DNA of 64,000 nucleotides from Candidatus Levyibacteriota bacterium (GCA_038254115.1 JBBSGK010000001.1:67778-131777), one strand, 5' to 3'; positions 28,687-49,449 are shown, counted from the stretch's first letter. The notes: generated from the letters alone by a model not told the origin. Program-made: numbers and translations.

Positions 28687-29792
28687 ACTCTTACCTTAAG
28701 GCTTTCTCCTTTGAAGATAATTTTTTTAGGTTTTATAATCACTTGTCTTTCTCCAGTTTCTACATAGCCCGCATTCAAGCTTTCAAAACCATTTTTATTA
28801 ACGATTTCTTGAGCTTTCGCTATATCCTTTTCAGGAAGGAAAATTGCGTAGTCCATTCCCATATTATAAGTGTCATACATTTCATAATCGGTTAAGCCTG
28901 CATGTTCCTGAATAAATACAAATATTTCATGTGGCTCAATAATTTTATCAATAAAATATGTATAATCTTGTCTTGCACGCATTAATTTCCTCATCCCATG
29001 TCCGGTTATGTTTGAGACATAATGAATGTCGATATTTTCATCCAATAAACCCTGAATTAATTTTGCATAAATATTTGTTTTTGTTAAAAGTACCTCTCCA
29101 TATGTTTTACCGCTTGGTAATTTTGTACTATAACCTTTTGGTAGTTGTTTGGCAACTGCGCGTGTTAATGAAATTCCGTTGGCATTTACGCCACTGCTTT
29201 TAACCATCAGTATCCTGTCGCCTGATTTTAATTTTTTATCGGTTATTAATCTATCTTTACTTTTAATCATTCCAATCGCCGATCCTCCAAGCTCTGATGT
29301 TCCGGGGACAACAATACCCTTCATCGTTGGAGTTTCTCCACCGCCCCATGAGACTCCGGCGATATCGCACGCATTCTTCCATCCGTTAATAAGATCCGTC
29401 ATCCTTTTTTCATCAGATAGCCACTCATTGTCCTCAATAGCCCAGTAAGCATGAAGAACAAGAGGTGTTGCGCCTACAGTTATTAAATCATTGATAACTG
29501 TTGCGACAGTATCATGACCGATGTTGTCGTAGTAGGTTTTACCTGTAATTTTTCTGGTGTCGTCTGCGATAAGATTTTTAGTACCCAATCCTTCAATAAC
29601 CGATGCCATGAATACATTCCCTTGTTTCCAAACATATGCTGACTCACCACGGGAGTCTGAAACTTCTTCAAAACCATGTTTCTTTAGATTGATACCGGTA
29701 TTTGCTGCAGCAGATTGAGCCAGTACTTTGACTGGGTCTTTTGTGTCATAGTTATCTCCAACTTCTGAATAAGTAATTTTGTTATTTTTCAT
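28683..29792 (-). CDS. purM: Phosphoribosylformylglycinamidine cyclo-ligase (AIR synthetase)
   Basis: GLGTKNLIADD...DTVATVINDLITVGATPL is collinear with E. coli PurM GVGTKLRLA...LVAMCVNDLVVQGAEPL. Confidence 0.8.
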   Translation of the reverse strand: MKNNKITYSEVGDNYDTKDPVKVLAQSAAANTGINLKKHGFEEVSDSRGESAYVWKQGNVFMASVIEGLGTKNLIADDTRKITGKTYYDNIGHDTVATVINDLITVGATPLVLHAYWAIEDNEWLSDEKRMTDLINGWKNACDIAGVSWGGGETPTMKGIVVPGTSELGGSAIGMIKSKDRLITDKKLKSGDRILMVKSSGVNANGISLTRAVAKQLPKGYSTKLPSGKTYGEVLLTKTNIYAKLIQGLLDENIDIHYVSNITGHGMRKLMRARQDYTYFIDKIIEPHEIFVFIQEHAGLTDYEMYDTYNMGMDYAIFLPEKDIAKAQEIVNKNGFESLNAGYVETGERQVIIKPKKIIFKGESLKVRV

Positions 29793-30436
29793 AGTGATTG
29801 TATTATAGCAGGTGTTAGTTCATCAAAAGATGTAATAATTTTATCAGCACTTTTTAGTTCTTTAGGATGATGCGTTGTGGTAATTGCAATGCATTTCATG
29901 CCAGCACTTTTTGCCGATTTTATACCGTTTGAAGAATCTTCAATCACAATACAATTTTTTGGATCAACATTTAGCATTTTTGCAGTAAGTAGAAATAATT
30001 CAGGATTTGGTTTGCCTTCTGAAACCTGATCACCTCCTGAAACAACTCTAAATTTATCACGGATTCCTAGTATCTTTAAAACTAATTCTACAAAATGAGT
30101 TGGTGATCCGGAGGCAACTCCTAGTTTGTAACCCTTTAATCTATTAATCAAATCAATTATACCTGGAATTGATATAATTTGGTCGTGTGGTATTTTTTTC
30201 ATTTTCAGCCATTTTTTTCTTACTGCCTCGCTAGGAGAGTAGTTAACTGAATGTTTTATAAATTCATTTTTAAACTGTACACCGTCTTTTGTTCCTGAGT
30301 ACAATAAAGTTATTTCTTTTTCTGAGATGTCTATACCATAACTTAAAAAGATTGCGCTTTCAATTTTAGCGTGAATCCTTTCAGTATCGGAGATGACCCC
30401 ATCCATGTCAAAAATAACTGCTCTTATTTTCGTCAT
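29789..30436 (-). CDS. HAD-superfamily hydrolase (beta-phosphoglucomutase/phosphatase-like, subfamily IA)
   Basis: AVIFDMDGVISDTE motif I, and the later motifs IEDSSNG and K. Confidence 0.75.
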   Translation of the reverse strand: MTKIRAVIFDMDGVISDTERIHAKIESAIFLSYGIDISEKEITLLYSGTKDGVQFKNEFIKHSVNYSPSEAVRKKWLKMKKIPHDQIISIPGIIDLINRLKGYKLGVASGSPTHFVELVLKILGIRDKFRVVSGGDQVSEGKPNPELFLLTAKMLNVDPKNCIVIEDSSNGIKSAKSAGMKCIAITTTHHPKELKSADKIITSFDELTPAIIQSL

Positions 30437-31404
30437 ATTTTTTTGCTTAAATTCTTCATTATTCTATCTTCAATCGGGTAATCAAAAGCTTTGAAATTTT
30501 TTCCTGTTATTTTTTCGTAGACGCTGATGTAGCGTTGAGAAGTTGCTAAGATTAATTCCTGGGCCATTTCTGGTGGTCTGCCGTTGCCAGAGTAGCCCTT
30601 TTCTGCGTACCAGAGCCTTATAAATTCTTTGTCAAAATTTTCAGGTTCCAAGTTTTTGCTAAACCTTTCATCGTAAGTATTTGCTATCCAAAATCTTGAT
30701 GAATCTGGAGTATGAATTTCATCTATTAGTATAAGTTTGTCGTCATACAAACCAAATTCGTATTTTGTATCGACAAGTATTAGTCCACTTCTTTTGCATA
30801 GCCTTTGTCCATATTCAAACAATTTAAGCGAGACTTCTTCCATTTGCTCATATAGATTTTGGGGGACCAATTTTTTTCCGATAATTTCTTTTTTGGTCAA
30901 CCGCGTATCATGCCCTCCTTTACCGGTCATATCTCCGTGATATGTAGGTGTAATAACGGGTATAGGAAGTTTTTGATTTTTTTTCAAGCCGTTCGGAAAA
31001 TTAATTCCATAAATTTCCCTCTCACCTTTTTTGTATGAATCCCAAATTGATGTGACAGTAACTCCTGTCATGTATCCGCGTACTACAATTTCAATTGGAA
31101 TCAGTTCGCAGTTTTTTGAAATCAAAACATTTGGATCGGGGACTGAGATCATATGATTTGGAACAATATTTTTTGTTTTCTCAAACCAAAACTCAGCAAG
31201 CTGATTGAGTACGGCCCCTTTGAATGGAACGTATCCAAGCATGACATCAAATGCCGACTGTCGGTCAGTTGTGATAGTTATTCTTTTATCATTTTTAATA
31301 TAAAAGTCGCGGACTTTCCCCTGATGTTTTCTGCCGAGGTTTGGGAGATTTATTGTCTTTAATACATTTGGAAGTGATGTTAGAATTGTTTGTTCATTTA
31401 CCAT
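30433..31404 (-). CDS. purC: SAICAR synthetase (long form)
   Basis: GKVRDFY...TTDRQSAFD match PurC motifs. Confidence 0.9.
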
Positions 31405-31891
31405 CTTGTTTCAATTTTTCATTTTTCGCTTTTACTGTCGATTCCATATTCTTCTTGTACTGTTCGATTTTTGATTGTAACTGCGGATTTGATGTCCCCA
31501 AAATTTCAATTGCCAAAAGTCCTGCATTTTTGGCGCCATTTACAGCTACTGTCGCAACGGGTATTCCGGCCGGCATTTGGGCAATGGATACCAAAGAGTC
31601 CAGACCATCCATAGTACTTGTTTTGATAGGTACCCCAATTGTTGGTAAAGAGGTGAATGACGCGGTCATACCGGGTAAATGTGCAGCCCCCCCGGCTCCT
31701 GCTATTATTACCTTAAGGCCTTTGCCGATAGCGGACTTAGCGTATTCAGACATATAATCCGGTGTTCTGTGGGCCGAAACAATTTCCAGCTCAAAAGAAA
31801 CGCCGAACTCCTCCAACACTTTGGCTGCTTCTTGCATAACAGGGAGATCGGAATCCGAACCCATTATTATGCCGACAAGTGGTTTATTCAT
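31394..31891 (-). CDS. purE: N5-CAIR mutase
   Basis: [14 protein letters not shown]...[10 protein letters not shown]. Confidence 0.9.
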
Positions 31892-33015
31892 ATAGTTATA
31901 TAACTTCCCGCAAGTTTTGCGTTTTTTAAAGCCTCTTCAAGTGTATCCGCAACGGCTGTAATGTGTCCCATTTTACGCTCTGGTTTCGTCTCCAGTTTAC
32001 CATAAATATGTACCTTTACGCCAGGTATTTTTTCAGCAATTTCTACGCCTTTCGGATCTGCATTTCCAGTTCTATTGCCCAAGATATTTATCATAACAGC
32101 AGCAGGAGAGGTTGTCTTGGTTGATCCAAGATTCATTCCTGTTACTGCCCTTATGTGCTGCTCGAACTGGGAAGTTTCATTTGCTTCAATTGTGTGATGT
32201 CCTGAGTTATGAACTCGTGGTGCAATTTCATTAATTAGTACTTCACCATCCTCTGTCAAAAACATTTCAATCCCGAAGACTCCTGCTCCCTTGAGGTGTT
32301 TCATAACTTCAATTCCTAATGCTTTTGCTTTATCTGCAATTTTTTTATCCATAGGTGCAGGGGAGAGAAGATAGTGCAAAATATTATTTTTATGAATTGT
32401 TTCAACCACTGGATAAGTTACAATTTCGCCATTTGTGCTACGTCCTACAATAATAGCCAGTTCTTTAATAAATGGTACAAATTTTTCTACGTACAATTTT
32501 CTTCCTCCAAGTTTGCCTAATGCACTATCAATTTGCGACTCATCTTCTATTAAGGCATTACCCCGCCCATCATATGCATCAAAGCGTGCTTTTAATAAAA
32601 TAGGGTAGCCGAATTTTTCAGCTGATTTTAAAACATCTTTTTTAGTGTTTATATCGAGAAAGTCAGAAACAGGTAGATTATTTGTCTTCAAAAACTGCTT
32701 TTGCAAAAATTTATCACGGATAATCTCAAGAGTTTCAGGAGATGGGTTTATCTTAACGCCTTTTTCTTCGAGTTCTTTTAAAATGTCGGAGTTTGCCAGT
32801 TCAATCTCAAATGTCAGATAATCAGAAATATCTCCAAGCTCCCGGATCGCTTTCTCGTCTTTAAAATCTGCTATTATCTGGCTATCTGCTATTTGACCTG
32901 CAGGACTCTTGGGGGTTGGGTCGATGATATTAACTGTGAAGCCTAATTTTTTTGCAGGAGCGGTCAGCATTCTACCAAGTTGCCCGCCGCCAACAATTCC
33001 AATTCTTTTTTTCAT
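31888..33015 (-). CDS. purK: N5-carboxyaminoimidazole ribonucleotide synthetase (ATP-grasp)
   Basis: [14 protein letters not shown] with an ATP-grasp body. It sits directly upstream of purE. Confidence 0.85.
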
Positions 33016-34409
33016 CTACTGCAAAGATTTTTTATATTTTCAGCTAATTTTTTTGCTCTCTCGGGGGCGTCGCCAGTGTGGGATTTTACATCTAGCAATT
33101 CTTCAATTTCTTTTTTATTGAGATATTTGTTAATTGTTTGATCAGACAATAATAAATCTTTCATTGGGTTTGGATTGCCATTTGATACTTCTTCCCAAGC
33201 TTTCATTGAAATTTCTCGAAGCACCTCGTGCGTCTCCTGGCGGTCTGCGCCTTTTTTAACTGATTCAATTATTATCAGCTCAGTTGCCGAGAAAGGAGCA
33301 TATTGATTAAGGTTTTGCATGATTTTGTTTTCATTAATAACCATTCCGCCAATTAATTTTTTTGCAGTTTCCAAAATATCATCTGTTGCTAGAAAAGCTT
33401 CGGGCATAATAACACGTTTGTTGGCAGAATCGTCAAGAGTTCTTTCAAGAAGTGAAACAGAGGCATTCTCTAGCGCAACCGGAGGGAGCGATCTAACATA
33501 TCTTGCAAGTGAACAAACTTTTTCAGATGTAAAAGGATTTCTTTTAAAAGGCATTGCCGATGATCCGACTTGTTTTTTACCAAACGGCTCAGACCATTCA
33601 CCAAAACCGGGGGATTGCATAATACGCAAATCAAATGCAAACTTTGAGATGCTGGATGCAATTGATGCCAGCGAAGATAGAATAAAGTAATCAAATTTTC
33701 TAGGATTAACCTGGCTTGAGATTAGAACAGCATCAAGGTCCAAGTCTTTCAAGAATTTTTCTTCAAGTTGGGCCGGTGTGGTAGTAGTTCCTTTCAATAA
33801 TGCTGAGTAACTTGCCGCTGTGCCGACTGCGCCTTTTAAACCTTTTCCTTTGATGGTTTGTTTAATAAAACGCAATTGTCCAAGATCCAGCAAAAGGTCT
33901 TGCGCATAAAAAGCAAATCTATATCCGAGAGTTGTCGGTTCTGCCGGCTGCAAATGAGTGTATCCCATGCATGCATGATCTGCATATTTTGAGATTTTTT
34001 CCTCAAGAAGTTTTAATACACTTATTAATTTTTCTTCAATTATATTTAGCGCTTCTTTGTTACGGAGTGTTTCTGCATTGTCAACAATGTCCTGACTTGT
34101 TGCACCCAGATGAATTTTTCCACCGCCAATTTTTGCTTTTTCTGAAAATTCTTTCAGAGCTGAAACTACATCATGATTTGTGTCTTTTTCAATTTCAAGT
34201 ATACGCCCGATGTCAAAATCGTCTACATTTTTTTCCAGATCCTTCAGTTCCTCAGTACTTACCAATCCCGTAGAGTTTTGTGCTTTTGCAAGTGCCACCC
34301 AGAGTTTTCTCCAGGTCCTGTATTTATTTTCCTCACTAAAAATACCTCTCATTTTTTCAGATCCGTATCTCCAGCTAAAAGGCGATTGATATGTTTTAAA
34401 ATTTATCAT
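33012..34409 (-). CDS. purB: Adenylosuccinate lyase
   Basis: Fumarate-lyase signature GATSQDIVDNA. Length 465 aa. Confidence 0.9.
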   Translation of the reverse strand: MINFKTYQSPFSWRYGSEKMRGIFSEENKYRTWRKLWVALAKAQNSTGLVSTEELKDLEKNVDDFDIGRILEIEKDTNHDVVSALKEFSEKAKIGGGKIHLGATSQDIVDNAETLRNKEALNIIEEKLISVLKLLEEKISKYADHACMGYTHLQPAEPTTLGYRFAFYAQDLLLDLGQLRFIKQTIKGKGLKGAVGTAASYSALLKGTTTTPAQLEEKFLKDLDLDAVLISSQVNPRKFDYFILSSLASIASSISKFAFDLRIMQSPGFGEWSEPFGKKQVGSSAMPFKRNPFTSEKVCSLARYVRSLPPVALENASVSLLERTLDDSANKRVIMPEAFLATDDILETAKKLIGGMVINENKIMQNLNQYAPFSATELIIIESVKKGADRQETHEVLREISMKAWEEVSNGNPNPMKDLLLSDQTINKYLNKKEIEELLDVKSHTGDAPERAKKLAENIKNLCSR

Positions 34410-35497
34410 GAAATTATTGAATCTAGCTTATTTGATTCTGCTGCTTCTTTTATTTCCATAGCTACCCGTTTACCGACATTGATTGGCTCTCCAAATAAAT
34501 ATCCGCTGTAGGGAGTTGCTGTAATTCCCGGAGATCCGGGGAATCTTGGCGAGACATCAATTACAACAATATCCTTTTTTGGAGGACCCGGTATTATAAA
34601 AGATTGAAGTGCAAAGGGTCCAATTATACCGGGATTCTTTAGTTTATTGCATGCTGTCACAAATCTTTCTCCTATTTCAAATACCTGCTCAAGCATAGAT
34701 TCAAGAACAGTAACTGCAGTATGGCTTGCTTCCTCATATGAGATGGTTACTTTTTTTAATAATTCCTCCTGGTAATTTAGAGGAAGTTTCGTGATGCCGT
34801 CAAAATTTGTCTGTCGTCTGGTATCTGTTCCTAGTAATTCCAAGCGGTTATGGATAGGAGAATAGAAAAAATTAAAATTTACTTGGACTCCAACAATAAA
34901 TTCTTCAATTACTGCTTTCTTTAGCAAGTCTTCTGTGATTAGACCAAGATATAATTTTTGCTCTGTTTGCTTAATATAGTCTTCATAACTATCAACTATA
35001 AAAAATGCCCTCTCAAACTCTCGCTCCTTTTCAAGAACTTTCACAAGACACACCCTGTCAATTTTTTTGGGATCCTTGAATTGTTTCGGATAGCGTATCC
35101 CTGCTGCGTCTAAGAGATCGTATTGATTTGGTTTGGCCCCTCTTTCTTCAATTCTTAACAATTTTTTGTTGCCAAACATAGGAACTGAGAATTTGTTTTC
35201 AATTGCATCATAGTCATTTATATAAACTTCAAATGACCTGTTGGGAATAAATATTGCGTTTTTACTCTTTAACTTTTCCTGAATAGGTGGTGTTAGAATA
35301 TCAGAAAATTTATCAACCAATAAAATTTCATCAACGCATCCAAGATTGCCTTTGGTTTTATAATAATTTGCATACGTTTTTTCCCTTCCTTTTTGGCATA
35401 CAATTATATTCTTAAATCCGATGTCCTTGGCGCCGCGGGCAACTTCAAGTGCTGAATGGCTGCCTATTGTTGCGATAGTTATGTTTTTATTATTCAT
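34406..35497 (-). CDS. PurP-like ATP-grasp protein; divergent paralog of archaeal FAICAR synthetase
   Basis: IATIGSHSALEVARGAK, SVPMFGNKKLL and NFNFFYSPI are collinear with M. jannaschii PurP TLGSHTSLHILKGAK, LVPMFGNRRIL and IHYFYSPL. Confidence 0.6.
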   Translation of the reverse strand: MNNKNITIATIGSHSALEVARGAKDIGFKNIIVCQKGREKTYANYYKTKGNLGCVDEILLVDKFSDILTPPIQEKLKSKNAIFIPNRSFEVYINDYDAIENKFSVPMFGNKKLLRIEERGAKPNQYDLLDAAGIRYPKQFKDPKKIDRVCLVKVLEKEREFERAFFIVDSYEDYIKQTEQKLYLGLITEDLLKKAVIEEFIVGVQVNFNFFYSPIHNRLELLGTDTRRQTNFDGITKLPLNYQEELLKKVTISYEEASHTAVTVLESMLEQVFEIGERFVTACNKLKNPGIIGPFALQSFIIPGPPKKDIVVIDVSPRFPGSPGITATPYSGYLFGEPINVGKRVAMEIKEAAESNKLDSIIS

Positions 35498-36144
35498 TGG
35501 TGATGATGCTTGATAGGTTCTAATCCGTCGACTTCTTCAATGAAAAAATCAACGCCATCAGTTTTTATCTTGATATATGCGGTATTTGCAATTGAATAAT
35601 CGGCAAGCTCCTTGTATGTTTTATATCCCAAGTGAACTAAGAACGTTCTCATAATTGAGGTGTGACTGATTGTCAAAACGGTCTTGTTAGGGTAGGAAAT
35701 AGCAATTTCCCGGAGCGCAGTTATAAATCGTGACATAACTTCCTCATCAGTTTCGCGTCCAACGGCAAGAGTTTTACTTTTCCATTCATCATAAGGAATG
35801 TTATACATTGTATCTATAATTTCCTTTATTTCTTTTTTTGCTTCAGCTGTAGGGCGTCCTTCCAATACTCCATGAAACCTTTCTTTCAAGTGTTCTTTGG
35901 TAAGAACGGCGAGCTTATGTTCCTCAGCAATAATTTTGGCGGTTTGCTGTGCTCTTACCAAAGGTGATGCAAAAATGACATCAAATTTAATTTTTTTAAG
36001 GTTTTTTGCCGCATCTTTCGCCTGCTCTTGCCCTTTTTCAGTTAATTCTTTATCTAGTCCGTAGGTATCAACAGGATGGTTTCCATGGGATTGTCCATGG
36101 CGTACTAGATAAATTGTGCAATAGTTTTTATCTTTCATAGTCAA
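35494..36144 (-). CDS. Histidine phosphatase (phosphoglycerate-mutase superfamily) protein
   Basis: IYLVRHGQSHGN with the RHG catalytic motif. Confidence 0.8.
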   Translation of the reverse strand: MTMKDKNYCTIYLVRHGQSHGNHPVDTYGLDKELTEKGQEQAKDAAKNLKKIKFDVIFASPLVRAQQTAKIIAEEHKLAVLTKEHLKERFHGVLEGRPTAEAKKEIKEIIDTMYNIPYDEWKSKTLAVGRETDEEVMSRFITALREIAISYPNKTVLTISHTSIMRTFLVHLGYKTYKELADYSIANTAYIKIKTDGVDFFIEEVDGLEPIKHHHQ

Positions 36145-37685
36145 TGTTTAAATGCTCTTATTCCTGTCATTATCATAGCAACTCCTGATTCATTACATGC
36201 ATCAATTGTTTCTTGGTCTCTTATCGATCCGCCCGGCTGAATAATAGCTATTATGCCAGCTTTTATCAGTATATCAGGTCCATCCCGGAAGGGAAAAAAT
36301 CCATCAGTTGCAGCGACTGCACCGGTTAGGGGTTTAACGGCTTTACTTACGCATAATTCACAGCAGCGTTTCCGGTCTTGCTGCCCGACACCCGATGCCA
36401 AAAGTACACCATTTTTTACAGCTACAACACAATTTGATTTACTGACTTGGGATATACTCCATGCAAATAATAAGTCATCCAGTTGTTCTTTAGTTGGTTT
36501 TATTTTTGTAACACATTTCAGATCTTTTTTGGTCAATTCATATGTATCTGTGTCTTGCATAATATAACCGCCCCTGATTTTTTTCTGCTCTTTATAATTT
36601 TTGAGATATGGCTTTGATAACTGGGTATTCTCCAGCAATTGCAATTTAGGTTTTTTGGATAAAGCTTCTAGTGCTTTTTTTGAAAACCCAGGCGCCGCAA
36701 TCACCTCGAAGAATTTTTTATCCAAAAGCATGAGAGTGGCCAAATCTTGCGTAACGGCTCTATTGAAAATTATAACTCCGCCGAATGCTGCCAGAGGATC
36801 GCCATCAAACCATGCTTTTTGAAATGCATCTTCTACGGTTTCAGAAACAGCAGCTCCGCAGGGATTGGTGTGTTTGAGAATTACACAAGCCGGGGATTTT
36901 TGTCCTATTAAAGAAATTGCCTGAAGACCTGCATCCAGATCAAGATAATTATTGTATGATGTTTCTTTCCCCTGCAAAACTTTGTAATTTCCCAGTCCCA
37001 ATCCATCTTTGTTTTTAGCATCTTTGAAAAATTCTGCGCTTTGATGCGGGTTTTCTCCATAGCGTAATTTTTTTCCATTTTGCAGCGTAATAAATTTATC
37101 AGTTCCGTCTATTTCTTTCTGAAAATAATTTGCTATTATTTCATTATACTGCGCAACGTAAGAAAAGGCTTTGGCGGCCAGTGCTTTACGAAAATCTTCA
37201 TTAGTCACGTTAGTTTTTTCAATTTCTTTTGCGACAGATTTATAATCTCTAGGATCGGTAACTACAGTTACACTTTTATAATTTTTGGCAGCGGATCTCA
37301 CCATTGTTGGACCGCCTATATCGATCATTTCAATACCCGGTTGATCAGCGAAAGGATAAAAATTGCAAATAACAAAATCTATAATAGGAGTTTGAAGTTC
37401 TGCTGCTTGTTTTGCATGAGTTTTATTGCCGCGGTCAAACAAAAGGCCTGATGCAATTTGAAAGCTTATTGTTTTTACACGTCCATCAAAACTCTCAGGA
37501 GATTTGGTTATTTCTTCGATCGGAATTATTTTTATACCGTTTTTAATTAAATACTTTGCCGTCCCGCCTGTTGAAATAATATTGATTCCATTTTTGAGGA
37601 GTATTTTTGCCAGATCTAAGATACCTGTTTTGTCATAAACACTAATTAGAGCGTATTTTTGATTTACTGTTTGGTTCTTCTTCAT
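36141..37685 (-). CDS. purH: Bifunctional AICAR transformylase / IMP cyclohydrolase
   Basis: ALISVYDKTGI MGS-like domain, and AICARFT domain motifs. Confidence 0.9.
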   Translation of the reverse strand: MKKNQTVNQKYALISVYDKTGILDLAKILLKNGINIISTGGTAKYLIKNGIKIIPIEEITKSPESFDGRVKTISFQIASGLLFDRGNKTHAKQAAELQTPIIDFVICNFYPFADQPGIEMIDIGGPTMVRSAAKNYKSVTVVTDPRDYKSVAKEIEKTNVTNEDFRKALAAKAFSYVAQYNEIIANYFQKEIDGTDKFITLQNGKKLRYGENPHQSAEFFKDAKNKDGLGLGNYKVLQGKETSYNNYLDLDAGLQAISLIGQKSPACVILKHTNPCGAAVSETVEDAFQKAWFDGDPLAAFGGVIIFNRAVTQDLATLMLLDKKFFEVIAAPGFSKKALEALSKKPKLQLLENTQLSKPYLKNYKEQKKIRGGYIMQDTDTYELTKKDLKCVTKIKPTKEQLDDLLFAWSISQVSKSNCVVAVKNGVLLASGVGQQDRKRCCELCVSKAVKPLTGAVAATDGFFPFRDGPDILIKAGIIAIIQPGGSIRDQETIDACNESGVAMIMTGIRAFKH

Positions 37686-37687
37686 AA

Positions 37688-38704
37688 CTAATCCAGAATA
37701 ATTGAAAGTTTGTCTTTCTTAATAGCATTTTTTATTTCCCTGGCAATTCTCCGGCCTGTACTCATCGGTTCATTGTAATAAAGCCAAGAGTAAGCAGAGC
37801 CGTTGATAAATAAGTTTGTTCCGGCGACGATTCTTGCGGAAATTTCCAAAACAAAAAACCTGCCGTCAGGAGTGATAATTGTCTCAAGACAGAAAGGACC
37901 AAAAATTCCCCTTTTATCAATCACTTTTTTTGATTGCGCTATCGTTTTTTTGGCCATATTATATGCCTCAGAAAGCATACTTTCACGTAGTACCAAATCG
38001 CTGTTCCCGACAACAACGTAGCTTGGCTCAATATCTAGCTCTTCTTGTCCGAGGAGTGGAATTCTTCCTATGCCATCAGCATTGGTTTCATAGCGCCTAT
38101 CCATACTCATGATTTCAAGTTTATTGGATAGAGGGGAGTAAAAATAGTGAATATATAACGGGACACCTATGACATATTCTTGTATTACAAATTGTTTATT
38201 CTCAAAAACGCTTATTTTATTTTCAAAATCACTTCTGTTTTTTGCGTAGAAATATCCTTTGCCGCCTGATGCACCATATGACTTAACAATGATAGGGTAT
38301 TTTACCGGCTCGTGCTCAAAATCAAATTGGTGGGGCACATTGATTCCTGCATTTACAAGCCACTCGCGCTGCTTTTGTCTGTCTTCTTCCCAGTCGAGGA
38401 CATTTTTATTGCCATAATACAAAACGTTCATACTCTTATTCTTCTCAGCGCCGAGATAGGCAACAAATGAGCCGTGAGGAATTAGAATTACATTCTTATC
38501 TATTAATTCTTTCTCAATCGTCGGGAATTCAGAAAAAGAGGGGAGAGTTATAAATTCATCAATAAAGGGAAATGTTTTATAAAACTCTTCTTTTCCTGGA
38601 GTTGTTATTATTAGAGTTCTGAATCCTTCATCTTTTGCACCTTTTAATATCTGAAGCGCCGAGTGGCTTCCAAGTGTCGAGATTATGTATTTTTTATTAT
38701 TCAT
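37688..38704 (-). CDS. purP: 5-formaminoimidazole-4-carboxamide ribonucleotide synthetase, archaeal-type (formate-dependent)
   Basis: ISTLGSHSALQILKGAKDEGF, IPHGSFVAYLG, YIHYFYSPL and FVLEISARIVAGTN are collinear with M. jannaschii PurP. Confidence 0.8.
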   Translation of the reverse strand: MNNKKYIISTLGSHSALQILKGAKDEGFRTLIITTPGKEEFYKTFPFIDEFITLPSFSEFPTIEKELIDKNVILIPHGSFVAYLGAEKNKSMNVLYYGNKNVLDWEEDRQKQREWLVNAGINVPHQFDFEHEPVKYPIIVKSYGASGGKGYFYAKNRSDFENKISVFENKQFVIQEYVIGVPLYIHYFYSPLSNKLEIMSMDRRYETNADGIGRIPLLGQEELDIEPSYVVVGNSDLVLRESMLSEAYNMAKKTIAQSKKVIDKRGIFGPFCLETIITPDGRFFVLEISARIVAGTNLFINGSAYSWLYYNEPMSTGRRIAREIKNAIKKDKLSIILD

Positions 38705-38705
38705 G

Positions 38706-39551
38706 TTATTTAAAGTATTTTACAGCATTTTTGAATATTTGTAACCCTGGTCCATCAACCGGAAGTTTTTGTCCCTCTCTATTATACTTTTCTTTCAGCA
38801 ATTGCCAATTGGGAATTTGATTAAAAAACATTCCCCGTTCAGGATGGGGCATAAGACCCAAGATTTTACCTGTGCTGTCAGTAATGCCTGCAATATCATC
38901 AATTGAGCCATTAGGATTGGCAGGAAGATCCAGATAAATACTCATTTCTCCCAGTGTATACTGTAGTGCAATTTGTCTGTTTTTATGTAATTCCTTGAGA
39001 TCTTTTTTGTCTACGAAAAACTTTCCTTCACCATGTGCGATTGGTAGGGACAGAGTATCAATTCCCAAGAGCCAGGGAGTATCGGATACGACCCTCAGGT
39101 CTACCCAGCGGGTAATAAACCGAGCCGATTGGTTGTAAACCTGTGCAACCTGTCTTTCACCGTAGTTTTGAGAAAGGGCCGGAATAAGGCCAAGATTTGT
39201 AACAATCTGGCAGCCATTACATATTCCAATGATAAGCTTATCTTTCTCAAGAAACTTTTGTATTTGCACCCAAAGATGATTACGTACTTTATTTGCGTAT
39301 GCATTTCCGGCACCTGTGTCATCTCCATATGCAAAACCGCCCGGGAAGGACAATATTTGGTATTTATCCAGTTTTTCCCGCCCATCAACGATATCATTGA
39401 TATGAACAATGTCTGAGCTAGCCCCTGCTAATTCAAAGCCATATGCGGTTTCTTCTTCTGAATTTAGTCCGTATCCTGAAAAAACTAAAACTTTTGGTTT
39501 GTTCATAATATTAATAATCCGCAAATGTTTTTCTATACGCGTTTGTTGCAT
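38706..39551 (-). CDS. purQ: FGAM synthase glutaminase subunit (class I glutamine amidotransferase)
   Basis: VFSGYGLN..., GGFAYGDD, IGICNGCQI with a catalytic Cys, and the MPHPER His. It overlaps the purL 3' end by 41 nt. Confidence 0.8.
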   Translation of the reverse strand: MQQTRIEKHLRIINIMNKPKVLVFSGYGLNSEEETAYGFELAGASSDIVHINDIVDGREKLDKYQILSFPGGFAYGDDTGAGNAYANKVRNHLWVQIQKFLEKDKLIIGICNGCQIVTNLGLIPALSQNYGERQVAQVYNQSARFITRWVDLRVVSDTPWLLGIDTLSLPIAHGEGKFFVDKKDLKELHKNRQIALQYTLGEMSIYLDLPANPNGSIDDIAGITDSTGKILGLMPHPERGMFFNQIPNWQLLKEKYNREGQKLPVDGPGLQIFKNAVKYFK

Positions 39552-42537
39552 CTTTCAAATTCAAGTTAATTATCTCCTCTCCTTTTAGTCCATTAATTTT
39601 TATGGTTGGTTCTTTGACTATTTTTCCAATTTGGGATATCGCGTTTCCTAGCATAGCTTTTTCAAATATTTTTTTATTGCTTGGCGCAATTGTCACTAAA
39701 ATTCTTCCCTGGCTTTCCGAGTATAGTGCAAAATCATTTCTGTTTACGCTGCCCGGTAAATTTTTCAAATAAATATCTGCCCCAAGCTGTCCACCTATTA
39801 TTTTTTTGGCAAGTGCAACAGCGAGTCCTCCGCGCCCAATGCTAATGCTTGATGCGATAAGTTTTTGCTGAATTGCATTATAGTAAGAAGCATATAATTT
39901 TTTATTTTTCTCGGCATCTACATCCGGCACGATACTTCCTGTTTGATTAATCATCGAAAAATATTCAGATCCACCTAATTCTTCGTGTGTTTCTCCCAAA
40001 ATGTAAATTATGTCTCCAGCAAATTTTGCATCAAGTGAAACGGTTTTTGTTATGTCATCAATCACACCAATTGATGAAATGAGAAGAGTGGGGGGGACTG
40101 AGATTTTGATAGGCAAGCCATTATTATCAAATCCTTTAAAGTCATTGAACATGCTATCTTTTCCTGAAATAAAAGGAGTGCCATATGATACTGCATAATC
40201 GTAGCAAGCTTTTGCGGTTTGTTTTAATTGCCATAAGCGTTCCGGTTCAAAGCTTTCGCACCAGCAAAAATTGTCCAAAAGCGCGATTATGTCAGGCTTG
40301 GCTCCTGCGGCAATAACATTTCTTACTGCGCTATCGATACAAACTGCACCCATTTTGTAAGGATCAATTTCAGAATAACTAGGATATAAAGCTTGGGACA
40401 TTACTACTCCCTTTTGGCTTTTTAAAATAGGTTTGATTACCGATGCATCAGCATTCACTCTGCCCCGCCCCTGAAGCGGCCCCAGGACTGCGTTACTTTG
40501 AACGATATTATCGTATTGTTGTGATATAAATTTAAAACTTGTTAGATTCATACGCGACAACATTGAAAGCAATATTTTTTTTTGATCTTTTGGTTCTGCA
40601 ATGCTTAATTCTTGCTTCTTAATGCTTAATTCTTTGGTTTCAAGTTGGCGCTTAGGAAGACCGTCGTGTAAAAACTCTAAATCAACATCCATTATTTTTT
40701 TACCGTTATAGTCGACAACACACCGGCCGCTTCTTGTAAATTCACCAATTATAGTTGCCTCAACACCCCGCCTCTTCATAAGATCTGAAAATTTCTTCCA
40801 GTTATTTTTGGGAATGGCAAGTGTCATACGCTCCTGGGATTCCGAGATCCAAATTTCCCAGGGATCAAGGCCTGCATACTTAAGTGGTACTTTTTCAAGA
40901 TCTACAATGCAGCCGCCTGATTCTTTTGCCATTTCCGAAACTGAGCAGGAAAGTCCGCCGGCTCCATCGTCTGTGATGCTGTTGTACAGCAACTGATCAC
41001 GCGCTTCTTTTATGATAGCATCACTCATTTTTTTCTGAGTAATCGGATCACCAATTTGTACTGCAGCAGCAGGGCTTCCACTGTCTAGCCCAACTGATGA
41101 AAAAGTAGCTCCGTGAATTCCATCCTTACCGACTCGCCCCCCGGTCATTACTATCAAGTCGCCAGGTAGGGATTTTTTAATGTGTGATAATTTGCCTTTA
41201 ATTTTTTTCGGGATTAGTCCGATTGTACCGGCAAACACCAAAGGTTTACCCCTATAACGCTCATCAAAGTATATAAATCCCTGAGGTGTCGGAATTCCTG
41301 ATTGATTCCCTCCTGCATTTACACCGTCTATTACTCCGTCCATTATCCTCCTGCTGGAGAGTATTGGATTTTTGAGGTCTTTATCACGATATAAAATTAT
41401 TTCATCCGATGGATCTCCTGCCCGCAACGCTCTCGCTTGCGAGGCGGGCGGGGCGAGACAAAACCCGTAAAAATTGGCAATAGGTTTGGCACCTAGACCA
41501 AATCCGATCGTATCGCGGTTAACGCCTACAATCCCGGTTATGGATCCCCCATATGGGTCAAGAGCTGATGGGCTATTATGTGTTTCTACTTTGTGAGTTA
41601 TTAAATAATTATCATCAAAAACAATTGCTCCTGAGTTATCTGTAAAAACAGAAACACAGAAATCCTTTTTGCCTTTCTTTTTTCTAATCTCTTCCGTTGC
41701 CCGCTTAATATAAGTTTTGTAAAGCCCGCCTTTTATTTTATCAATTGGTCCTCCAAAAATTGTATGCTTGCAATGTTCAGACCATGTCTGGGCAATTGAC
41801 TCCAGCTCAATATCAGTGGGATTACGTCCTAGCTTTTTAAAATATTTTTGAATTGCTTTCATAAATAGAAGATCAAGAGCAAGAGGACCACGCCGGGTCT
41901 CATCAGAATTTAAAATTCCAGATTTTCCAATTTTTATCAACTCCTCGTCTGATATATTGAGATTAACATCTGTTACTTGAGGTTTTTTAATAAGTTTTAC
42001 TTTGGAAGTAACGATATCCATCCCTCCGTCTTTAATAAACTGCCCGCAGCTTTTTATAAGTGTTCTCTGAATTAGAGGATTATGAAGACTTAGTGCGATT
42101 TGTTCTGCATCCGCTTTTGAAATTTTTCCATTAATGAATGTGACTTGGGAAGTGTAAACATCTTCATCGTTTGAAAATTTTATTTTCAAAGTGTCTTCAA
42201 TTATTTCTTTCGCAGTGTGCGCTATGTTATCGGTCACTCCCGGAAGAAATCCAATTTCTATTGCAAAACTAAACTGGTTTTCTAGTTTTGCCTTTTTGTT
42301 TTTTGTTCGAAATATAAAATTCTGAGTGACAGGATTGGATAATGCTTGTGCAATTGATTCGAGATGTTTTTCTGAAAATGATTTGTCAACAGTATATACA
42401 TCGATTATCCAAAGATCTGAAATATTTTTAAAGCCAAAACCATTTAGCTTTTTTTGCCGAGTTTGCGCTCTTGCATCAAAATCTTTTACTATAATTCCTA
42501 TCCTTGTTGTCATATCTTTCCAATGTCCAATCTGCAT
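39511..42537 (-). CDS. purL: FGAM synthase, large (E. coli-type) N-domain plus synthetase domains but without a glutaminase domain
   Basis: Two PurM-like repeats with glycine-rich motifs. Length 1008 aa. Confidence 0.9.
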   Translation of the reverse strand: MQIGHWKDMTTRIGIIVKDFDARAQTRQKKLNGFGFKNISDLWIIDVYTVDKSFSEKHLESIAQALSNPVTQNFIFRTKNKKAKLENQFSFAIEIGFLPGVTDNIAHTAKEIIEDTLKIKFSNDEDVYTSQVTFINGKISKADAEQIALSLHNPLIQRTLIKSCGQFIKDGGMDIVTSKVKLIKKPQVTDVNLNISDEELIKIGKSGILNSDETRRGPLALDLLFMKAIQKYFKKLGRNPTDIELESIAQTWSEHCKHTIFGGPIDKIKGGLYKTYIKRATEEIRKKKGKKDFCVSVFTDNSGAIVFDDNYLITHKVETHNSPSALDPYGGSITGIVGVNRDTIGFGLGAKPIANFYGFCLAPPASQARALRAGDPSDEIILYRDKDLKNPILSSRRIMDGVIDGVNAGGNQSGIPTPQGFIYFDERYRGKPLVFAGTIGLIPKKIKGKLSHIKKSLPGDLIVMTGGRVGKDGIHGATFSSVGLDSGSPAAAVQIGDPITQKKMSDAIIKEARDQLLYNSITDDGAGGLSCSVSEMAKESGGCIVDLEKVPLKYAGLDPWEIWISESQERMTLAIPKNNWKKFSDLMKRRGVEATIIGEFTRSGRCVVDYNGKKIMDVDLEFLHDGLPKRQLETKELSIKKQELSIAEPKDQKKILLSMLSRMNLTSFKFISQQYDNIVQSNAVLGPLQGRGRVNADASVIKPILKSQKGVVMSQALYPSYSEIDPYKMGAVCIDSAVRNVIAAGAKPDIIALLDNFCWCESFEPERLWQLKQTAKACYDYAVSYGTPFISGKDSMFNDFKGFDNNGLPIKISVPPTLLISSIGVIDDITKTVSLDAKFAGDIIYILGETHEELGGSEYFSMINQTGSIVPDVDAEKNKKLYASYYNAIQQKLIASSISIGRGGLAVALAKKIIGGQLGADIYLKNLPGSVNRNDFALYSESQGRILVTIAPSNKKIFEKAMLGNAISQIGKIVKEPTIKINGLKGEEIINLNLKDATNAYRKTFADY

Positions 42538-43784
42538 TGCATGCCTTCAAAATGAATTCCATTTTTTCCAATTGCAGAATAAGCTTTTTTCAGTGCCTCA
42601 TTAAGTGTTTTACCTATTGCAGTTATACCAAGAACGCGACCCCCGTTTGTCAAAATTTTTCCATTTGCTTTTTTTGTTGCGAAGTGAAAAACAAAAATAT
42701 CTTCGTTTTTAATATTATTTAATCCATGAATTTCAATATTTTTTTTGTAACTTCCCGGGTATCCTGGGGATGCAAGGATGATGCAGCATGCAGATTGTTT
42801 AGCCCACTTTATATTTAACTCAGATAAATTTCCTTCTACGCAGGCAACTAGAATATCATAGAAATCTGTTTGCAGAAGTCTCATGTACGATTCCATTTCA
42901 GGATCTCCAAATCTTGAATTAAATTCAATTACTTTGGGTCCATCTTTTGTCATCATGAGTCCGGGATAAAGACAACCTACAAATGGTATGCCTTTTTTCT
43001 TAAGCCCGTTTAATGCCGGCTCAACAATTTTTTTCTTTATAGTTTCCAGATCATTTTTTGTAATATCCGGAACCGGTGCGATGGTTCCCATACCGCCTGT
43101 ATTTGGTCCGAGGTTTCCATCATGGATTGGTTTGTGATCACGTGATGCGGGCCATATTGAAAAAATATTTCCATCTGAAAAAACATGAATTGATATCTCT
43201 TTGCCTTGTAGAAATTCCTCTATCACCACTTCGTTCCCGGCTTCTCCAAATATCTTTTTTACCATAAGTTCATTAATTGTCCCCAAGGCTTGGTCTAAAC
43301 TCCGGGCAATTATTACCCCTTTTCCTAGCGCTAAACCCGATGCTTTGATAACTACGGGAAATGTGTGGTTTTTGAGATATGTCTTTGCATCAGCGGCATT
43401 TTTAAAAGTTGAAAATTTTGCAGTTGGAATTTTTTCATCTTTCATTAAATCTTTGGCAAATGATTTTGACCATTCTATCTTTGCCGCTTCTTTTGTGGGG
43501 CCAAAAATCTTTAATCGTTTTTTCTGAAACGCATTTACAATCCCGGCGGCAAGTATATCATCAGGTCCTGCAATGGTTAGAGCAATTTTATTTGTTATCG
43601 CAAATTTAATTAGTCTATCAAAATCGAGCGGATTAATACTTGTATTCTCACCAACAGTTTCCGTTCCTGCAGTGCCAGGGGAAAAGTAAATTTTCCCAAC
43701 TTTTGGAGATTGCTTCAATTTCCATCCCAACGCATGCTCCCGCCCGCCTGAACCGATAATTAAAACATTATTTTTTTTCACCAA
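42510..43784 (-). CDS. purD: Phosphoribosylamine--glycine ligase
   Basis: VLIIGSGGREHALGWKL. Confidence 0.9.
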   Translation of the reverse strand: MVKKNNVLIIGSGGREHALGWKLKQSPKVGKIYFSPGTAGTETVGENTSINPLDFDRLIKFAITNKIALTIAGPDDILAAGIVNAFQKKRLKIFGPTKEAAKIEWSKSFAKDLMKDEKIPTAKFSTFKNAADAKTYLKNHTFPVVIKASGLALGKGVIIARSLDQALGTINELMVKKIFGEAGNEVVIEEFLQGKEISIHVFSDGNIFSIWPASRDHKPIHDGNLGPNTGGMGTIAPVPDITKNDLETIKKKIVEPALNGLKKKGIPFVGCLYPGLMMTKDGPKVIEFNSRFGDPEMESYMRLLQTDFYDILVACVEGNLSELNIKWAKQSACCIILASPGYPGSYKKNIEIHGLNNIKNEDIFVFHFATKKANGKILTNGGRVLGITAIGKTLNEALKKAYSAIGKNGIHFEGMQCRLDIGKI

Positions 43785-45904: not shown

Positions 45905-45916
45905 AATTAAAAGAAC

Positions 45917-45939
45917 AAAAAAACCCGCTCGTTAGCGGG
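45917..45939 (-). terminator. Intrinsic-terminator-like hairpin followed by a T7 run in the purF 5' leader, 12 nt upstream of the start codon
   Basis: On the minus strand: CCCGCU-aacg-AGCGGG followed by TTTTTTT. No convergent gene exists for it to terminate. Confidence 0.5.
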
Positions 45940-46093
45940 GTTATGTTTTTATGCTTCGGCACTGAGCATTCTAATTTAATTATAATATATCTCTTTTGTT
46001 GTTTCAATAGGATTTTTGCTACCTCCATATGGTATTATAGCACAATTACTCATAAATTACATTAAATTGGGCCCGATATGTTAAAATCAGTCC

Positions 46094-49346: not shown

Positions 49347-49449
49347 GCGGAAATTATAACATAATCTAAATCTGGCAATTATTTTATCGTCATTCAGAAG
49401 AAAATATATAATTGACTTTAGCCTATAGCAATGGTATACTATCGGTCTT

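What the first reader, a model, noticed from the sequence alone, without database searches (positions are those of the whole stretch)
34406..38704. Two archaeal-type PurP paralogs flank purH
ORF 37688-38704 is strongly collinear with the M. jannaschii formate-dependent FAICAR synthetase. ORF 34406-35497 is a more divergent copy. Both coexist with folate-dependent PurH, while the GAR step uses folate-dependent PurN and no PurT is present. This gives redundant or alternative formyl sources for step 9 in a bacterium, and the divergent paralog may have another substrate.
Basis: partly seen in the sequence, partly recalled or inferred. Interest (0 to 1): 0.55.

Follow-up and report, generated by a model that had tools for sequence, protein, structure and literature searches.

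The report
Archaeal-type PurP enzyme pair in bacterium
A candidate-phyla-radiation bacterium carries, inside a complete purine-synthesis operon, the two-gene PurP pair so far described only in archaea; this is a new host for a known pair, and the pair's exact biochemistry is still unsolved.

Summary
ORFs 37688-38704 (A, 338 aa) and 34406-35497 (B, 363 aa), both on the minus strand, are full-length PurP-family ATP-grasp proteins. They bracket purH inside a tightly packed 14-gene pur operon.

They are not a local duplicate plus a drifting copy. A carries the cluster I marks (PurP II, PF1517-like): Asn258 and a Gly-rich loop. B carries every cluster II mark (PurP III): His258 and a loop two residues longer without the glycines.

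In 80 genome loci that hold a B-type gene, an A-type gene sits on the same strand in 70. These loci come from Microgenomates, Peregrinibacteria, Chloroflexi, DPANN archaea and Methanosarcinales. The A and B subtrees are largely congruent.

purH and a histidine phosphatase are lineage-specific insertions between the partners. PurH and the PurN domain keep their catalytic motifs.

Most likely A and B act together as a formate- and ATP-dependent AICAR formyltransferase, running alongside the folate-dependent PurH. This is inferred, not shown: the P. furiosus homologues were each inactive alone.

The PurP II + III + PurH combination is already known in archaea. Bacterial PurP contradicts a 2019 survey but is already auto-annotated in databases. 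Verdict: a new member of a known kind, of moderate interest.

The parts
37688..38704 (-). PurP copy A: cluster I (PurP II, PF1517-like) ATP-grasp protein, 338 aa
   Evidence: Pfam DUF1246 + DUF1297. Matches 2r84 at 1.1e-99 and 2r7k at 2.2e-85. Has Asn258 and the loop GASGGKGYF; H27, S94, S266 and R314 are kept. Groups with PF1517 in NJ trees. Below the NCBIfam equivalog cutoffs (376 bits against 580).
36141..37685 (-). purH: bifunctional AICAR formyltransferase / IMP cyclohydrolase, 514 aa
   Evidence: NF002049 577 bits against a cutoff of 402. The KH motif ILKHTNPCG is present. Relative to the two closest PurH relatives (L024, L014), the AICARFT domain is at least as conserved as the IMPCH domain (74/64% against 64/58%).
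35494..36144 (-). Histidine-phosphatase superfamily (branch 1) gene inserted between purH and copy B, 216 aa
   Evidence: Pfam His_Phos_1 6e-41. Best solved-structure matches are phosphoserine phosphatase and CobC-type enzymes, at about 1e-15 or weaker. Found in none of the 80 related loci at E <= 1e-5, so probably not part of the PurP system.
34406..35497 (-). PurP copy B: cluster II (PurP III) ATP-grasp-fold protein, 363 aa
   Evidence: Pfam DUF1246 + DUF1297. Matches 2r7k at 1e-69. Has His in place of Asn258 and a loop two residues longer, LEKEREFERAFF, without the glycines; H27, S94, S266 and R314 are kept. AlphaFold model pLDDT 85.5; best fold matches are M. jannaschii PurP, TM 0.74. Homologues at 66-86% identity are found across CPR.
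43778..45904 (-). purF-purN fusion, first gene of the operon: amidophosphoribosyltransferase plus folate-dependent GAR formyltransferase
   Evidence: TIGR01134 purF on residues 10-461 and TIGR00639 PurN on residues 484-693. The PurN catalytic motif N-L-H-P and the Asp in FDMGP are present.
38706..43784 (-). purD, long purL (1008 aa) and purQ, upstream of copy A
   Evidence: TIGR00877 482 bits, TIGR01736 531 bits, PurQ models.
28683..34409 (-). purB, purK, purE, purC, a HAD phosphatase and a divergent purM, downstream of copy B
   Evidence: Gene junctions overlap by 4-11 nt, which fits one operon.

Best explanation
Copies A and B are the bacterial counterparts of the archaeal PurP II (cluster Ib) and PurP III (cluster II) pair. 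The host is a candidate-phyla-radiation bacterium of the Microgenomates group.

Shown:
- the family and subfamily identity of each copy;
- near-universal same-strand adjacency of the two types;
- largely congruent A and B trees;
- embedding in purine operons;
- conserved ligand-contact residues in both copies.

Inferred: the two proteins work as one unit, most likely a hetero-oligomer. PurP I and II crystallise as dimers of trimers, as summarised in PMC6486802. The unit would use ATP and free formate to formylate AICAR to FAICAR (step 9). A, which has the Gly-rich phosphate loop and Asn258, would be the canonical ATP-grasp catalytic subunit. B, with His258 and the ExxRxFERAFF loop, would be a nucleotide-binding partner that A needs for activity.

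In this organism the pair would give a folate-independent route for step 9, in parallel with the AICARFT domain of PurH. PurH would supply the IMP cyclohydrolase step. GAR formylation would stay folate-dependent through the PurN domain.
For: Subfamily assignment:
- Every published cluster II mark is present in B, and every cluster I mark in A: residue 258 and the length and composition of the loop at 161-165 (PMC3261824).
- The marks hold in all 81 B-type and all 68 A-type sequences sampled.

Linkage:
- An A-type gene is on the same strand in 70 of 80 loci that hold a B-type gene. It is within 210 nt in 55 of those 70. This holds across CPR, Chloroflexi, DPANN and Methanosarcinales.
- The A and B subtrees have matching clades.

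Purine context:
- Typical Microgenomates operons read purF purN purD purL purQ A B purB (purK) purE purC purM.
- The genes identified between A and B are purH (window, L014, L024) and purA (L014 and L017 by Pfam; a gap of the same size in L018, L019, L021 and L029). One DPANN locus, L054, instead has an unrelated S-layer-like gene there.

Functional constraint:
- H27, K156, E265, S266 and R314 are at least 90% conserved in both types. The acidic residue at 310 is invariant in each type (Glu in A, Asp in B).
- CPR homologues of both copies are 66-89% identical.

Literature:
- PF1517 and PF0421 each lacked activity alone.
- PurP II and III always co-occur in archaea, which led Cruz et al. to propose a heterohexamer (PMC6486802).
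- PurP II + III + PurH coexist in 10 archaeal genomes.

Folate route:
- The PurH KH motif and the PurN N-x-H...D motif are intact.
- A FolD gene sits in the pur operon of a related Daviesbacterium, L002.
Against: - No activity has ever been shown for any PurP II or PurP III protein, alone or together. The P. furiosus proteins were inactive singly.
- No A-B fusion protein turned up among the representatives sampled.
- Seven B-type loci, mostly Thermoplasmatota, have no A-type gene within 3-10 kb.
- In this lineage A lacks the first basic residue of the P-loop (GASGG rather than GAKGG). B has Leu where M. jannaschii PurP has Arg264, next to the conserved Glu265-Ser266. Either protein could therefore be catalytically impaired here.
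- If PurH is fully functional, the pair looks redundant. That is unexpected in a small CPR genome.
Confidence: 0.55

Rival explanations
1. A alone is the formate-dependent FAICAR synthetase, as NCBI's pipeline names its CPR homologues. B catalyses a different ATP-grasp ligation on a related purine intermediate.
For: - A keeps the full set of cluster I active-site marks.
- PGAP names A-type CPR proteins 'formate--phosphoribosylaminoimidazolecarboxamide ligase' and B-type proteins only 'DUF1297 domain-containing protein'.
- B differs from A at 22 positions that are each conserved within their type. These include residue 258, which contacts the AICAR carboxamide.
Against: - The closest characterised relative of A, PF1517, bound ATP and AICAR but had no activity alone (PMC6486802).
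- A is below every NCBIfam equivalog cutoff.
- Independent functions would not predict the tight adjacency and congruent trees.
- B keeps the residues that contact the formyl group and the AICAR phosphate (H27, R314, S94, S266), so its ligand is probably AICAR- or FAICAR-like.
Confidence: 0.2
2. The pair carries out both final steps. A formylates AICAR, and B closes the ring (FAICAR to IMP) using His258 at the carboxamide. B would then be the 'missing' IMP cyclohydrolase of organisms that lack PurH2 and PurO.
For: - Brown et al. raised this possibility because many archaea with two PurP genes lack any known cyclohydrolase (PMC3261824).
- 37 archaeal genomes have only PurP II + III (PMC6486802).
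- Several otherwise complete Microgenomates pur operons have no purH within 10 kb (L002, L004, L005, L007, L008, L015). For L002, L007, L008 and L015, most of the unassigned neighbouring ORFs were also scanned against Pfam and none was PurO-like or purH-like.
- The only universal change at a substrate-contact position is Asn to His at the carboxamide.
Against: - This window has a full-length PurH whose IMPCH motifs look intact.
- purH sits right next to the pair in at least 10 CPR loci.
- The published phyletic pattern is imperfect: Archaeoglobus has PurJ and Methanosarcinales have PurH.
- B keeps the ATP-grasp Lys and acidic residues, which a cyclohydrolase would not need.
- Whole genomes could not be checked for purH elsewhere.
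Confidence: 0.12
3. The pair mainly salvages or detoxifies AICAR (ZMP) that comes from histidine synthesis or from the environment or host. It would not primarily serve the de novo pathway.
For: - In most DPANN loci (Woese-, Nano- and Micrarchaeota) the pair has no other pur gene nearby.
- K. cryptofilum has only the pair plus purB (PMC3261824).
Against: In this window, and in most Microgenomates and Chloroflexi loci, the pair sits in the middle of a de novo pur operon. Salvage and de novo use are also not mutually exclusive.
Confidence: 0.08
4. One or both copies are decaying remnants of a horizontally acquired archaeal cassette and no longer function.
For: Apparent redundancy with PurH. Loss of the first basic P-loop residue in A and of the Arg264 equivalent in B.
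Against: - Both ORFs are intact and translationally coupled to their neighbours.
- Identity is 66-89% across several CPR classes.
- Dozens of positions are invariant.
- The same substitutions are shared by the whole Microgenomates + Chloroflexi clade, so they are old and have been maintained.
Confidence: 0.03

Closest known systems
Pyrococcus furiosus PF1517 (PurP II / cluster Ib) with PF0421 (PurP III / cluster II)
   Same: The same two paralogue types with the same diagnostic residues, both encoded near other pur genes. A matches the PF1517 structure at 1.1e-99.
   Different: The host here is a bacterium, and the pair sits with a full PurH in one operon. A has Ser in place of the first basic P-loop residue. 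B has Leu at the Arg264 position.
Methanocaldococcus jannaschii MJ0136 PurP (PurP I, EC 6.3.4.23)
   Same: Same fold and family. H27, S94, S266 and R314 are conserved in both window copies. MJ0136 is the best structural and sequence match for B.
   Different: MJ0136 is a single-copy, stand-alone active enzyme in organisms without PurH1. At the 22 positions that separate the A type from the B type, it agrees with A at 14, with B at 4 and with neither at 4.
Methanosarcinales gene set: PurP II + PurP III + full-length PurH
   Same: The same three-way coexistence of the pair with a folate-dependent bifunctional PurH and with PurN (PMC3261824; PMC6486802).
   Different: The gene order is B then A in the Methanosarcinales loci sampled, and A then B here. 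The host is archaeal.
E. coli PurN / PurT duality at step 3
   Same: A folate-dependent transformylase and an ATP-grasp, formate-dependent ligase serve the same formylation step in one cell. This comparison rests on established knowledge of the pathway.
   Different: That duality is at GAR, not AICAR. PurT is a single polypeptide from a different ATP-grasp subfamily. No PurT is present in this window.

Membership tests
PurP family (Pfam DUF1246 + DUF1297, ATP-grasp fold) | Both PurP-specific domains match over the full length, above Pfam's cutoffs | tested here: met
   A: 147 and 227 bits. B: 146 and 198 bits. Cutoffs are 25 and 23.8.
PurP family (Pfam DUF1246 + DUF1297, ATP-grasp fold) | PurP three-dimensional fold | tested here: met
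   Tested for B only. The model (pLDDT 85.5) matches 2r7m/2r7l/2r7k at TM 0.74, E about 1e-33. Other ATP-grasp families reach only about 1e-10. The signature regions around 156-165 and 255-259 are the low-confidence parts of the model.
PurP family | Residues that contact the formyl group (His27, Arg314) and the AICAR 5'-phosphate (Ser94, Ser266), in M. jannaschii numbering | tested here: met
   All four are present in A and in B. The residue list comes from PMC3261824.
PurP cluster I (Ia/Ib; PurP I/II) | Asn at position 258 | tested here: met
   A has N234, aligned to N258. All 68 A-type sequences have Asn. B does not.
PurP cluster I (Ia/Ib; PurP I/II) | P-loop with the consensus (K/R)GG(K/R)G | tested here: inconclusive
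   A has SGGKG. The glycines and the second basic residue are kept, but the first basic residue is Ser. It is Ala or Ser throughout Microgenomates and Chloroflexi.
PurP cluster II (PurP III) | His instead of Asn at position 258 | tested here: met
   B has H259. All 81 B-type sequences have His.
PurP cluster II (PurP III) | Loop 161-165 is two residues longer, lacks the glycines and carries charged residues | tested here: met
   B has LEKEREFERAFF against FPGARGGRGYF in M. jannaschii PurP, with a two-residue insertion. Glu162 and Arg163 are invariant in the family alignment A1.
PurP II / PurP III pair | The two types co-occur in the same genome | tested here: met
   Both are in this operon. An A-type gene is next to or near the B-type gene in 70 of 80 related loci.
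Formate--phosphoribosylaminoimidazolecarboxamide ligase, EC 6.3.4.23 (NCBIfam equivalogs NF009778-NF009783) | Score at or above the curated equivalog cutoff | tested here: not met
   A's best score is 376 bits against 580. B's best is 287 bits against 556.
Formate--phosphoribosylaminoimidazolecarboxamide ligase, EC 6.3.4.23 | ATP- and formate-dependent conversion of AICAR to FAICAR | not testable with these tools
   This needs an enzyme assay. It has been shown only for MJ0136. PF1517 and PF0421 were negative singly (PMC3261824, PMC6486802).
Bifunctional PurH | AICARFT catalytic Lys-His motif and both domains present | tested here: met
   ILKHTNPCG is at residue 269. MGS and AICARFT_IMPCHas domains are present. 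NF002049 scores 577 bits against a cutoff of 402.
PurN (folate-dependent GAR formyltransferase) | Catalytic Asn-x-His and Asp (E. coli N106, H108, D144; residue numbers recalled from memory) | tested here: met
   INLHPAL and FDMGP are in the C-terminal domain of the PurF-PurN fusion. The domain scores 135 bits, below the TIGR00639 cutoff of 150.

The most novel reading that the evidence does not exclude
The A-B pair is a self-sufficient two-subunit module for both last steps of purine synthesis. A would be the formate ligase. B would be a previously unrecognised IMP cyclohydrolase, or a FAICAR-channelling subunit, that uses His258. That would explain the 'missing cyclohydrolase' of Crenarchaeota, Pyrococcus and the many Microgenomates whose pur operons lack purH. 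The module would also have moved between archaea and bacteria as a unit at least twice.
Probability: 0.12. Interest if true: 0.7.

Novelty: new member of a known kind. Interest (0 to 1): 0.42.

Why it matters
PurP has been treated as an archaeal signature enzyme. A 2019 survey of 1,403 complete genomes found it in no bacterium and dated its origin to after the archaea-bacteria split (PMC6486802).

Here the PurP II/III pair turns out to be a standard part of the purine operons of Microgenomates. It is also present in Peregrinibacteria and in Anaerolineae-type Chloroflexi. That weakens the survey's evolutionary conclusion.

The function of PurP II and III has been open since 2008. Compact bacterial operons with the two genes side by side are convenient material for co-expression and complementation experiments. 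These could settle whether the two proteins form one enzyme and whether they replace PurH.

For CPR biology, the operon is a further example of a small-genome bacterium with complete de novo purine synthesis, possibly with a folate-independent formylation step.

Tried and rejected
- Rfam scan of the whole window, plus a permissive scan of the purF leader, looking for a purine or ZTP riboswitch. Nothing was found beyond one chance-level hit.
- Search for A-B fusion proteins among 50%-identity representatives. None was found. The one long candidate, P0268, has an unrelated N-terminal part.
- Tested whether the two phosphatases belong to the system. The histidine phosphatase occurs only in this organism. 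The HAD gene recurs in only a few operons (L006, L010, L020). Both resemble generic sugar-phosphate or phosphoserine phosphatases. I treat them as passengers.
- Pfam scan of most of the unassigned ORFs around pur operons L002, L007, L008 and L015, which lack purH, looking for a PurO-like cyclohydrolase. Hits were only GltX, Sod, Era-like GTPase, PyrG, PurA, FolD and GDPD; one 316-aa ORF in L002 had no hit.
It was rerun with 13 sequences.
- The primary structural paper (Zhang, White and Ealick 2008) is not in the library. Its findings are cited second-hand from PMC3261824 and PMC6486802.
- Literature searches for PurP in CPR or Patescibacteria found nothing relevant.
- PurT was considered as a hidden identity of either copy and rejected on the profile scores.


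Full report
**What is in the window**

Positions 45904 to 28683 on the minus strand hold 14 tightly packed genes. Junctions range from a 2-nt gap to a 41-nt overlap, and most overlap by 4 nt. In order they are:
- a purF-purN fusion
- purD
- a long purL
- purQ
- PurP copy A (37688-38704)
- purH (36141-37685)
- a histidine-phosphatase-family gene (35494-36144)
- PurP copy B (34406-35497)
- purB, purK, purE and purC
- a HAD phosphatase
- a divergent purM

The surrounding genes are bacterial: nusA, infB, pnp, RNase J, ftsK, secA and prfB. Where homologues of both PurP copies carry a plausible source name, it is a Patescibacteria/CPR group such as Roizmanbacteria or Daviesbacteria. A few metagenome bins carry other labels, probably wrong. 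The host is therefore a candidate-phyla-radiation bacterium of the Microgenomates group.

Both ORFs match the two PurP-specific Pfam domains at 1e-43 to 1e-67. Both align end to end with solved PurP structures. A matches P. furiosus PF1517 at 1.1e-99 and M. jannaschii PurP at 2.2e-85. B matches M. jannaschii PurP at 1e-69 and PF1517 at 4.7e-46. A and B are 34% identical. An AlphaFold model of B (pLDDT 85.5) finds PurP structures first, at TM 0.74. Other ATP-grasp enzymes are far behind. Neither copy reaches any NCBIfam equivalog cutoff for the formate ligase.

**What the two copies are**

Brown et al. 2011 (PMC3261824) divide archaeal PurP-like proteins into two clusters.
- Cluster Ia/Ib has Asn258 and a (K/R)GG(K/R)G P-loop.
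- Cluster II has His258 and a loop two residues longer that lacks the glycines.

Each species with a cluster Ib gene had exactly one cluster II gene. Cruz et al. 2019 (PMC6486802) call the groups PurP I, II and III. They report the same strict II/III co-occurrence.

I aligned the window copies with M. jannaschii PurP, PF1517 and 50%-identity representatives of the whole family.
- A has Asn258 and the loop GASGGKGYF.
- B has His258 and the loop LEKEREFERAFF, with the two-residue insertion.
- Both keep His27, Ser94, Ser266 and Arg314.

In neighbour-joining trees A sits with PF1517 and B sits inside the His258 clade. So A is a cluster I (PurP II-like) protein and B is a cluster II (PurP III) protein. 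B is not a recently diverged duplicate.

**The pair behaves as a unit**

A scan of one genome per species returned 80 loci that encode a B-type protein. Their sources were:
- Microgenomates: Davies-, Roizman-, Levy-, Gottesman- and Curtissbacteria
- Peregrinibacteria/Peribacteria
- Chloroflexi: Anaerolineae, Caldilineae and Ardenticatenales
- DPANN archaea: Woese-, Nano- and Micrarchaeota
- Methanosarcinales/ANME and Thermoplasmatota

Linkage across these loci:
- An A-type gene lies on the same strand in 70 of the 80, and within 210 nt in 55 of those 70.
- Three of the ten loci without an A-type gene are contig-edge cases.
- The order is A then B in the bacteria and in Woese- and Nanoarchaeota. 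It is B then A in Methanosarcinales and Micrarchaeota.
- The A and B subtrees show the same clades. Microgenomates group with Chloroflexi. Peregrinibacteria are nested among Woese- and Nanoarchaeota.
- This is consistent with the two genes being inherited and transferred together, probably more than once between domains. It rests on neighbour-joining trees only.

The subfamily marks are absolute in this sample. All 81 B-type sequences carry His258, the loop ExxRx[FY]ER[AGSE]FF and D[VI]SxRx[PQ]GSP. All 68 A-type sequences carry Asn258, GAxGGxxY and E[IV]SxRIVAGT.

**'Flanking purH' is a derived arrangement**

The usual Microgenomates operon reads purF purN purD purL purQ A B purB (purK) purE purC purM. 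The position of purH varies:
- It lies between A and B only in the window organism and its nearest relatives, L014 and L024.
- In several Daviesbacteria it follows B.
- In Peregrinibacteria it precedes A.
- In many loci it is absent within 10 kb.

In L014 (Levybacteria) and L017 (Curtissbacteria) purA sits between A and B by Pfam. Four related loci (L018, L019, L021, L029) have a gap of the same size.

The histidine phosphatase occurs in none of the other loci. The HAD gene recurs in a few (L006, L010, L020).

**The folate-dependent enzymes look functional**

- The PurN domain keeps N-x-H and the Asp.
- PurH keeps the Lys-His motif.
- Relative to the two closest PurH relatives, its AICARFT domain is at least as conserved as its IMPCH domain. 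The motif is intact in all nine related PurH genes aligned from loci that hold the pair.
- A FolD gene sits in the pur operon of a related Daviesbacterium.

**How it most likely works**

The subfamily identities, the linkage and the purine context are shown. The mechanism is inferred.

The only PurP with demonstrated activity is M. jannaschii PurP I. PF1517 (PurP II) bound ATP and AICAR but was inactive, and PF0421 (PurP III) was also inactive. Cruz et al. therefore proposed a II/III heterohexamer. The near-universal adjacency and the congruent trees found here, now extended to bacteria, are what that proposal predicts.

My leading explanation (0.55) has four parts:
- A and B together form the ATP- and formate-dependent AICAR formyltransferase.
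- This runs in parallel with the AICARFT domain of PurH.
- PurH provides the cyclohydrolase step.
- PurN serves step 3.

One small supporting observation concerns the 22 positions that separate the A type from the B type. The stand-alone M. jannaschii enzyme agrees with B, not A, at four of them: L131, E199, Q297 and G317. It is also B's best match among solved structures.

Points against:
- There is no biochemical proof for any II/III pair.
- No fusion proteins were seen.
- There are lineage-specific losses of basic residues. The A P-loop reads GA(A/S)GG. B has Leu at the Arg264 position.

**Rivals**

- A acts alone and B has another substrate (0.20).
- The pair performs both last steps, with B as a cyclohydrolase (0.12). 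This is supported by operons that lack purH and by the Asn-to-His change at the carboxamide contact. It is weakened by the intact PurH here and by the ATP-grasp residues that B retains.
- The pair mainly salvages AICAR (0.08).
- One or both copies are decaying (0.03). This is contradicted by 66-89% identity across CPR classes.

**Comparison with what is known, and novelty**

The pair, its diagnostic residues and its coexistence with PurH and PurN (in Methanosarcinales) are all described in archaea. What is new is the host.

The 2019 survey found PurP in no bacterium. I found no paper on bacterial PurP in the held library. Database pipelines already label the CPR proteins, with A as the formate ligase and B as a DUF1297 protein.

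I therefore file this as a new member of a known kind, of moderate interest. It corrects an 'archaea-only' claim. It also offers compact bacterial operons in which the long-open PurP II/III question can be tested.

Noticed in passing
window 43778-45904 (-): purF and purN are fused into one 708-aa ORF. In related Microgenomates loci such as L005, L007 and L008 they are separate adjacent genes. The PurN domain has an insertion between the N-x-H motif and the catalytic Asp, and it scores below the TIGR00639 cutoff (135 bits against 150).
   Followed up: partly
window 39511-42537 (-) and 38706-39551 (-): purL is 1008 aa. The small-PurL model TIGR01736 aligns only from residue 230, and an FGAR-AT linker domain lies at residues 216-258. 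The N-terminal ~230 aa therefore resemble the N-domain of large PurL, yet the glutaminase (purQ) is a separate gene. No separate purS ORF was noticed in the operon, though short ORFs were not searched for it.
   Followed up: no
window 35494-36144 (-): A histidine-phosphatase-superfamily gene is translationally coupled (4-nt overlaps) between purH and PurP copy B. It is absent from all 80 related loci. Its nearest solved relatives are phosphoserine phosphatase and alpha-ribazole phosphatase types, at about 1e-15 or weaker. Its substrate is unknown.
   Followed up: partly
window 29789-30436 (-); also L006 12481-13119, L010 3667-4314, L020 12784-13398: A HAD-IA (beta-phosphoglucomutase-like) phosphatase sits inside the pur operon between purC and purM. 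Similar HAD genes recur in the pur operons of a few related CPR genomes, after purB. A phosphatase inside a nucleotide-synthesis operon is unexplained.
   Followed up: partly
window 28683-29792 (-): The purM-like gene is divergent: TIGR00878 scores 191 bits against a cutoff of 236. It is nevertheless conserved at 42-67% identity in the related CPR operons.
   Followed up: partly
window 45905-46010 (-): An 11-of-12 sigma-70-like promoter (TTGAAA-17-TATAAT, 46007-45979) is followed by a GC-rich hairpin plus T-run (45939-45924), only about 12 nt upstream of the purF ATG. This looks like a leader terminator or attenuator. No Rfam family matches it.
   Followed up: partly
L017 8710-9996, L014 8731-10002, L002 7615-8889 and 1692-2513: In L017 (Curtissbacteria) and L014 (Levybacteria) purA sits between the two PurP genes. 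In Daviesbacterium L002 purA lies on the opposite strand just upstream of them, and a FolD gene sits between purD and purL in the same pur operon.
   Followed up: yes
alignment of L001-L081, M. jannaschii positions 161 and 264: In the Microgenomates + Chloroflexi clade, two basic residues are lost together. The A type loses the first basic P-loop residue (GAAGG or GASGG against GAKGG). The B type loses the Lys/Arg before the conserved Glu-Ser (VTVLES against VTVKES). This is one shared evolutionary event, so it carries no statistical weight, but it may mark a change in how the two proteins handle phosphate groups.
   Followed up: partly
window 17630-18898 (-): A thymidine-phosphorylase-family ORF (422 aa) with weak Pfam scores. 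It may be the AMP-phosphorylase type of nucleoside salvage enzyme reported in CPR and archaea (this comparison is from memory).
   Followed up: no
window 19783-22101 (-) and 22119-24002 (-): A 772-aa ORF with only a weak baseplate-J-like hit lies directly downstream of a 627-aa alanyl-tRNA synthetase ORF that is shorter than usual.
   Followed up: no
window 48591-49550 (-): An F420-0:gamma-glutamyl ligase-family (CofE-like) ORF in a CPR bacterium, with a Vut_1 vitamin or queuosine-precursor transporter nearby at 51053-51703.
   Followed up: no
L041 ('Desulfobacteria'), L024 ('Methylomirabilota'), L032 ('Dependentiae') and several 'uncultured Gammaproteobacteria' binchicken MAGs: The taxon labels of several metagenome bins disagree with gene content and tree position. 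L041 groups with Methanosarcinales. L024 and the 'Gammaproteobacteria' bins carry Microgenomates-type operons. These are probably mislabelled or mis-binned contigs.
   Followed up: partly
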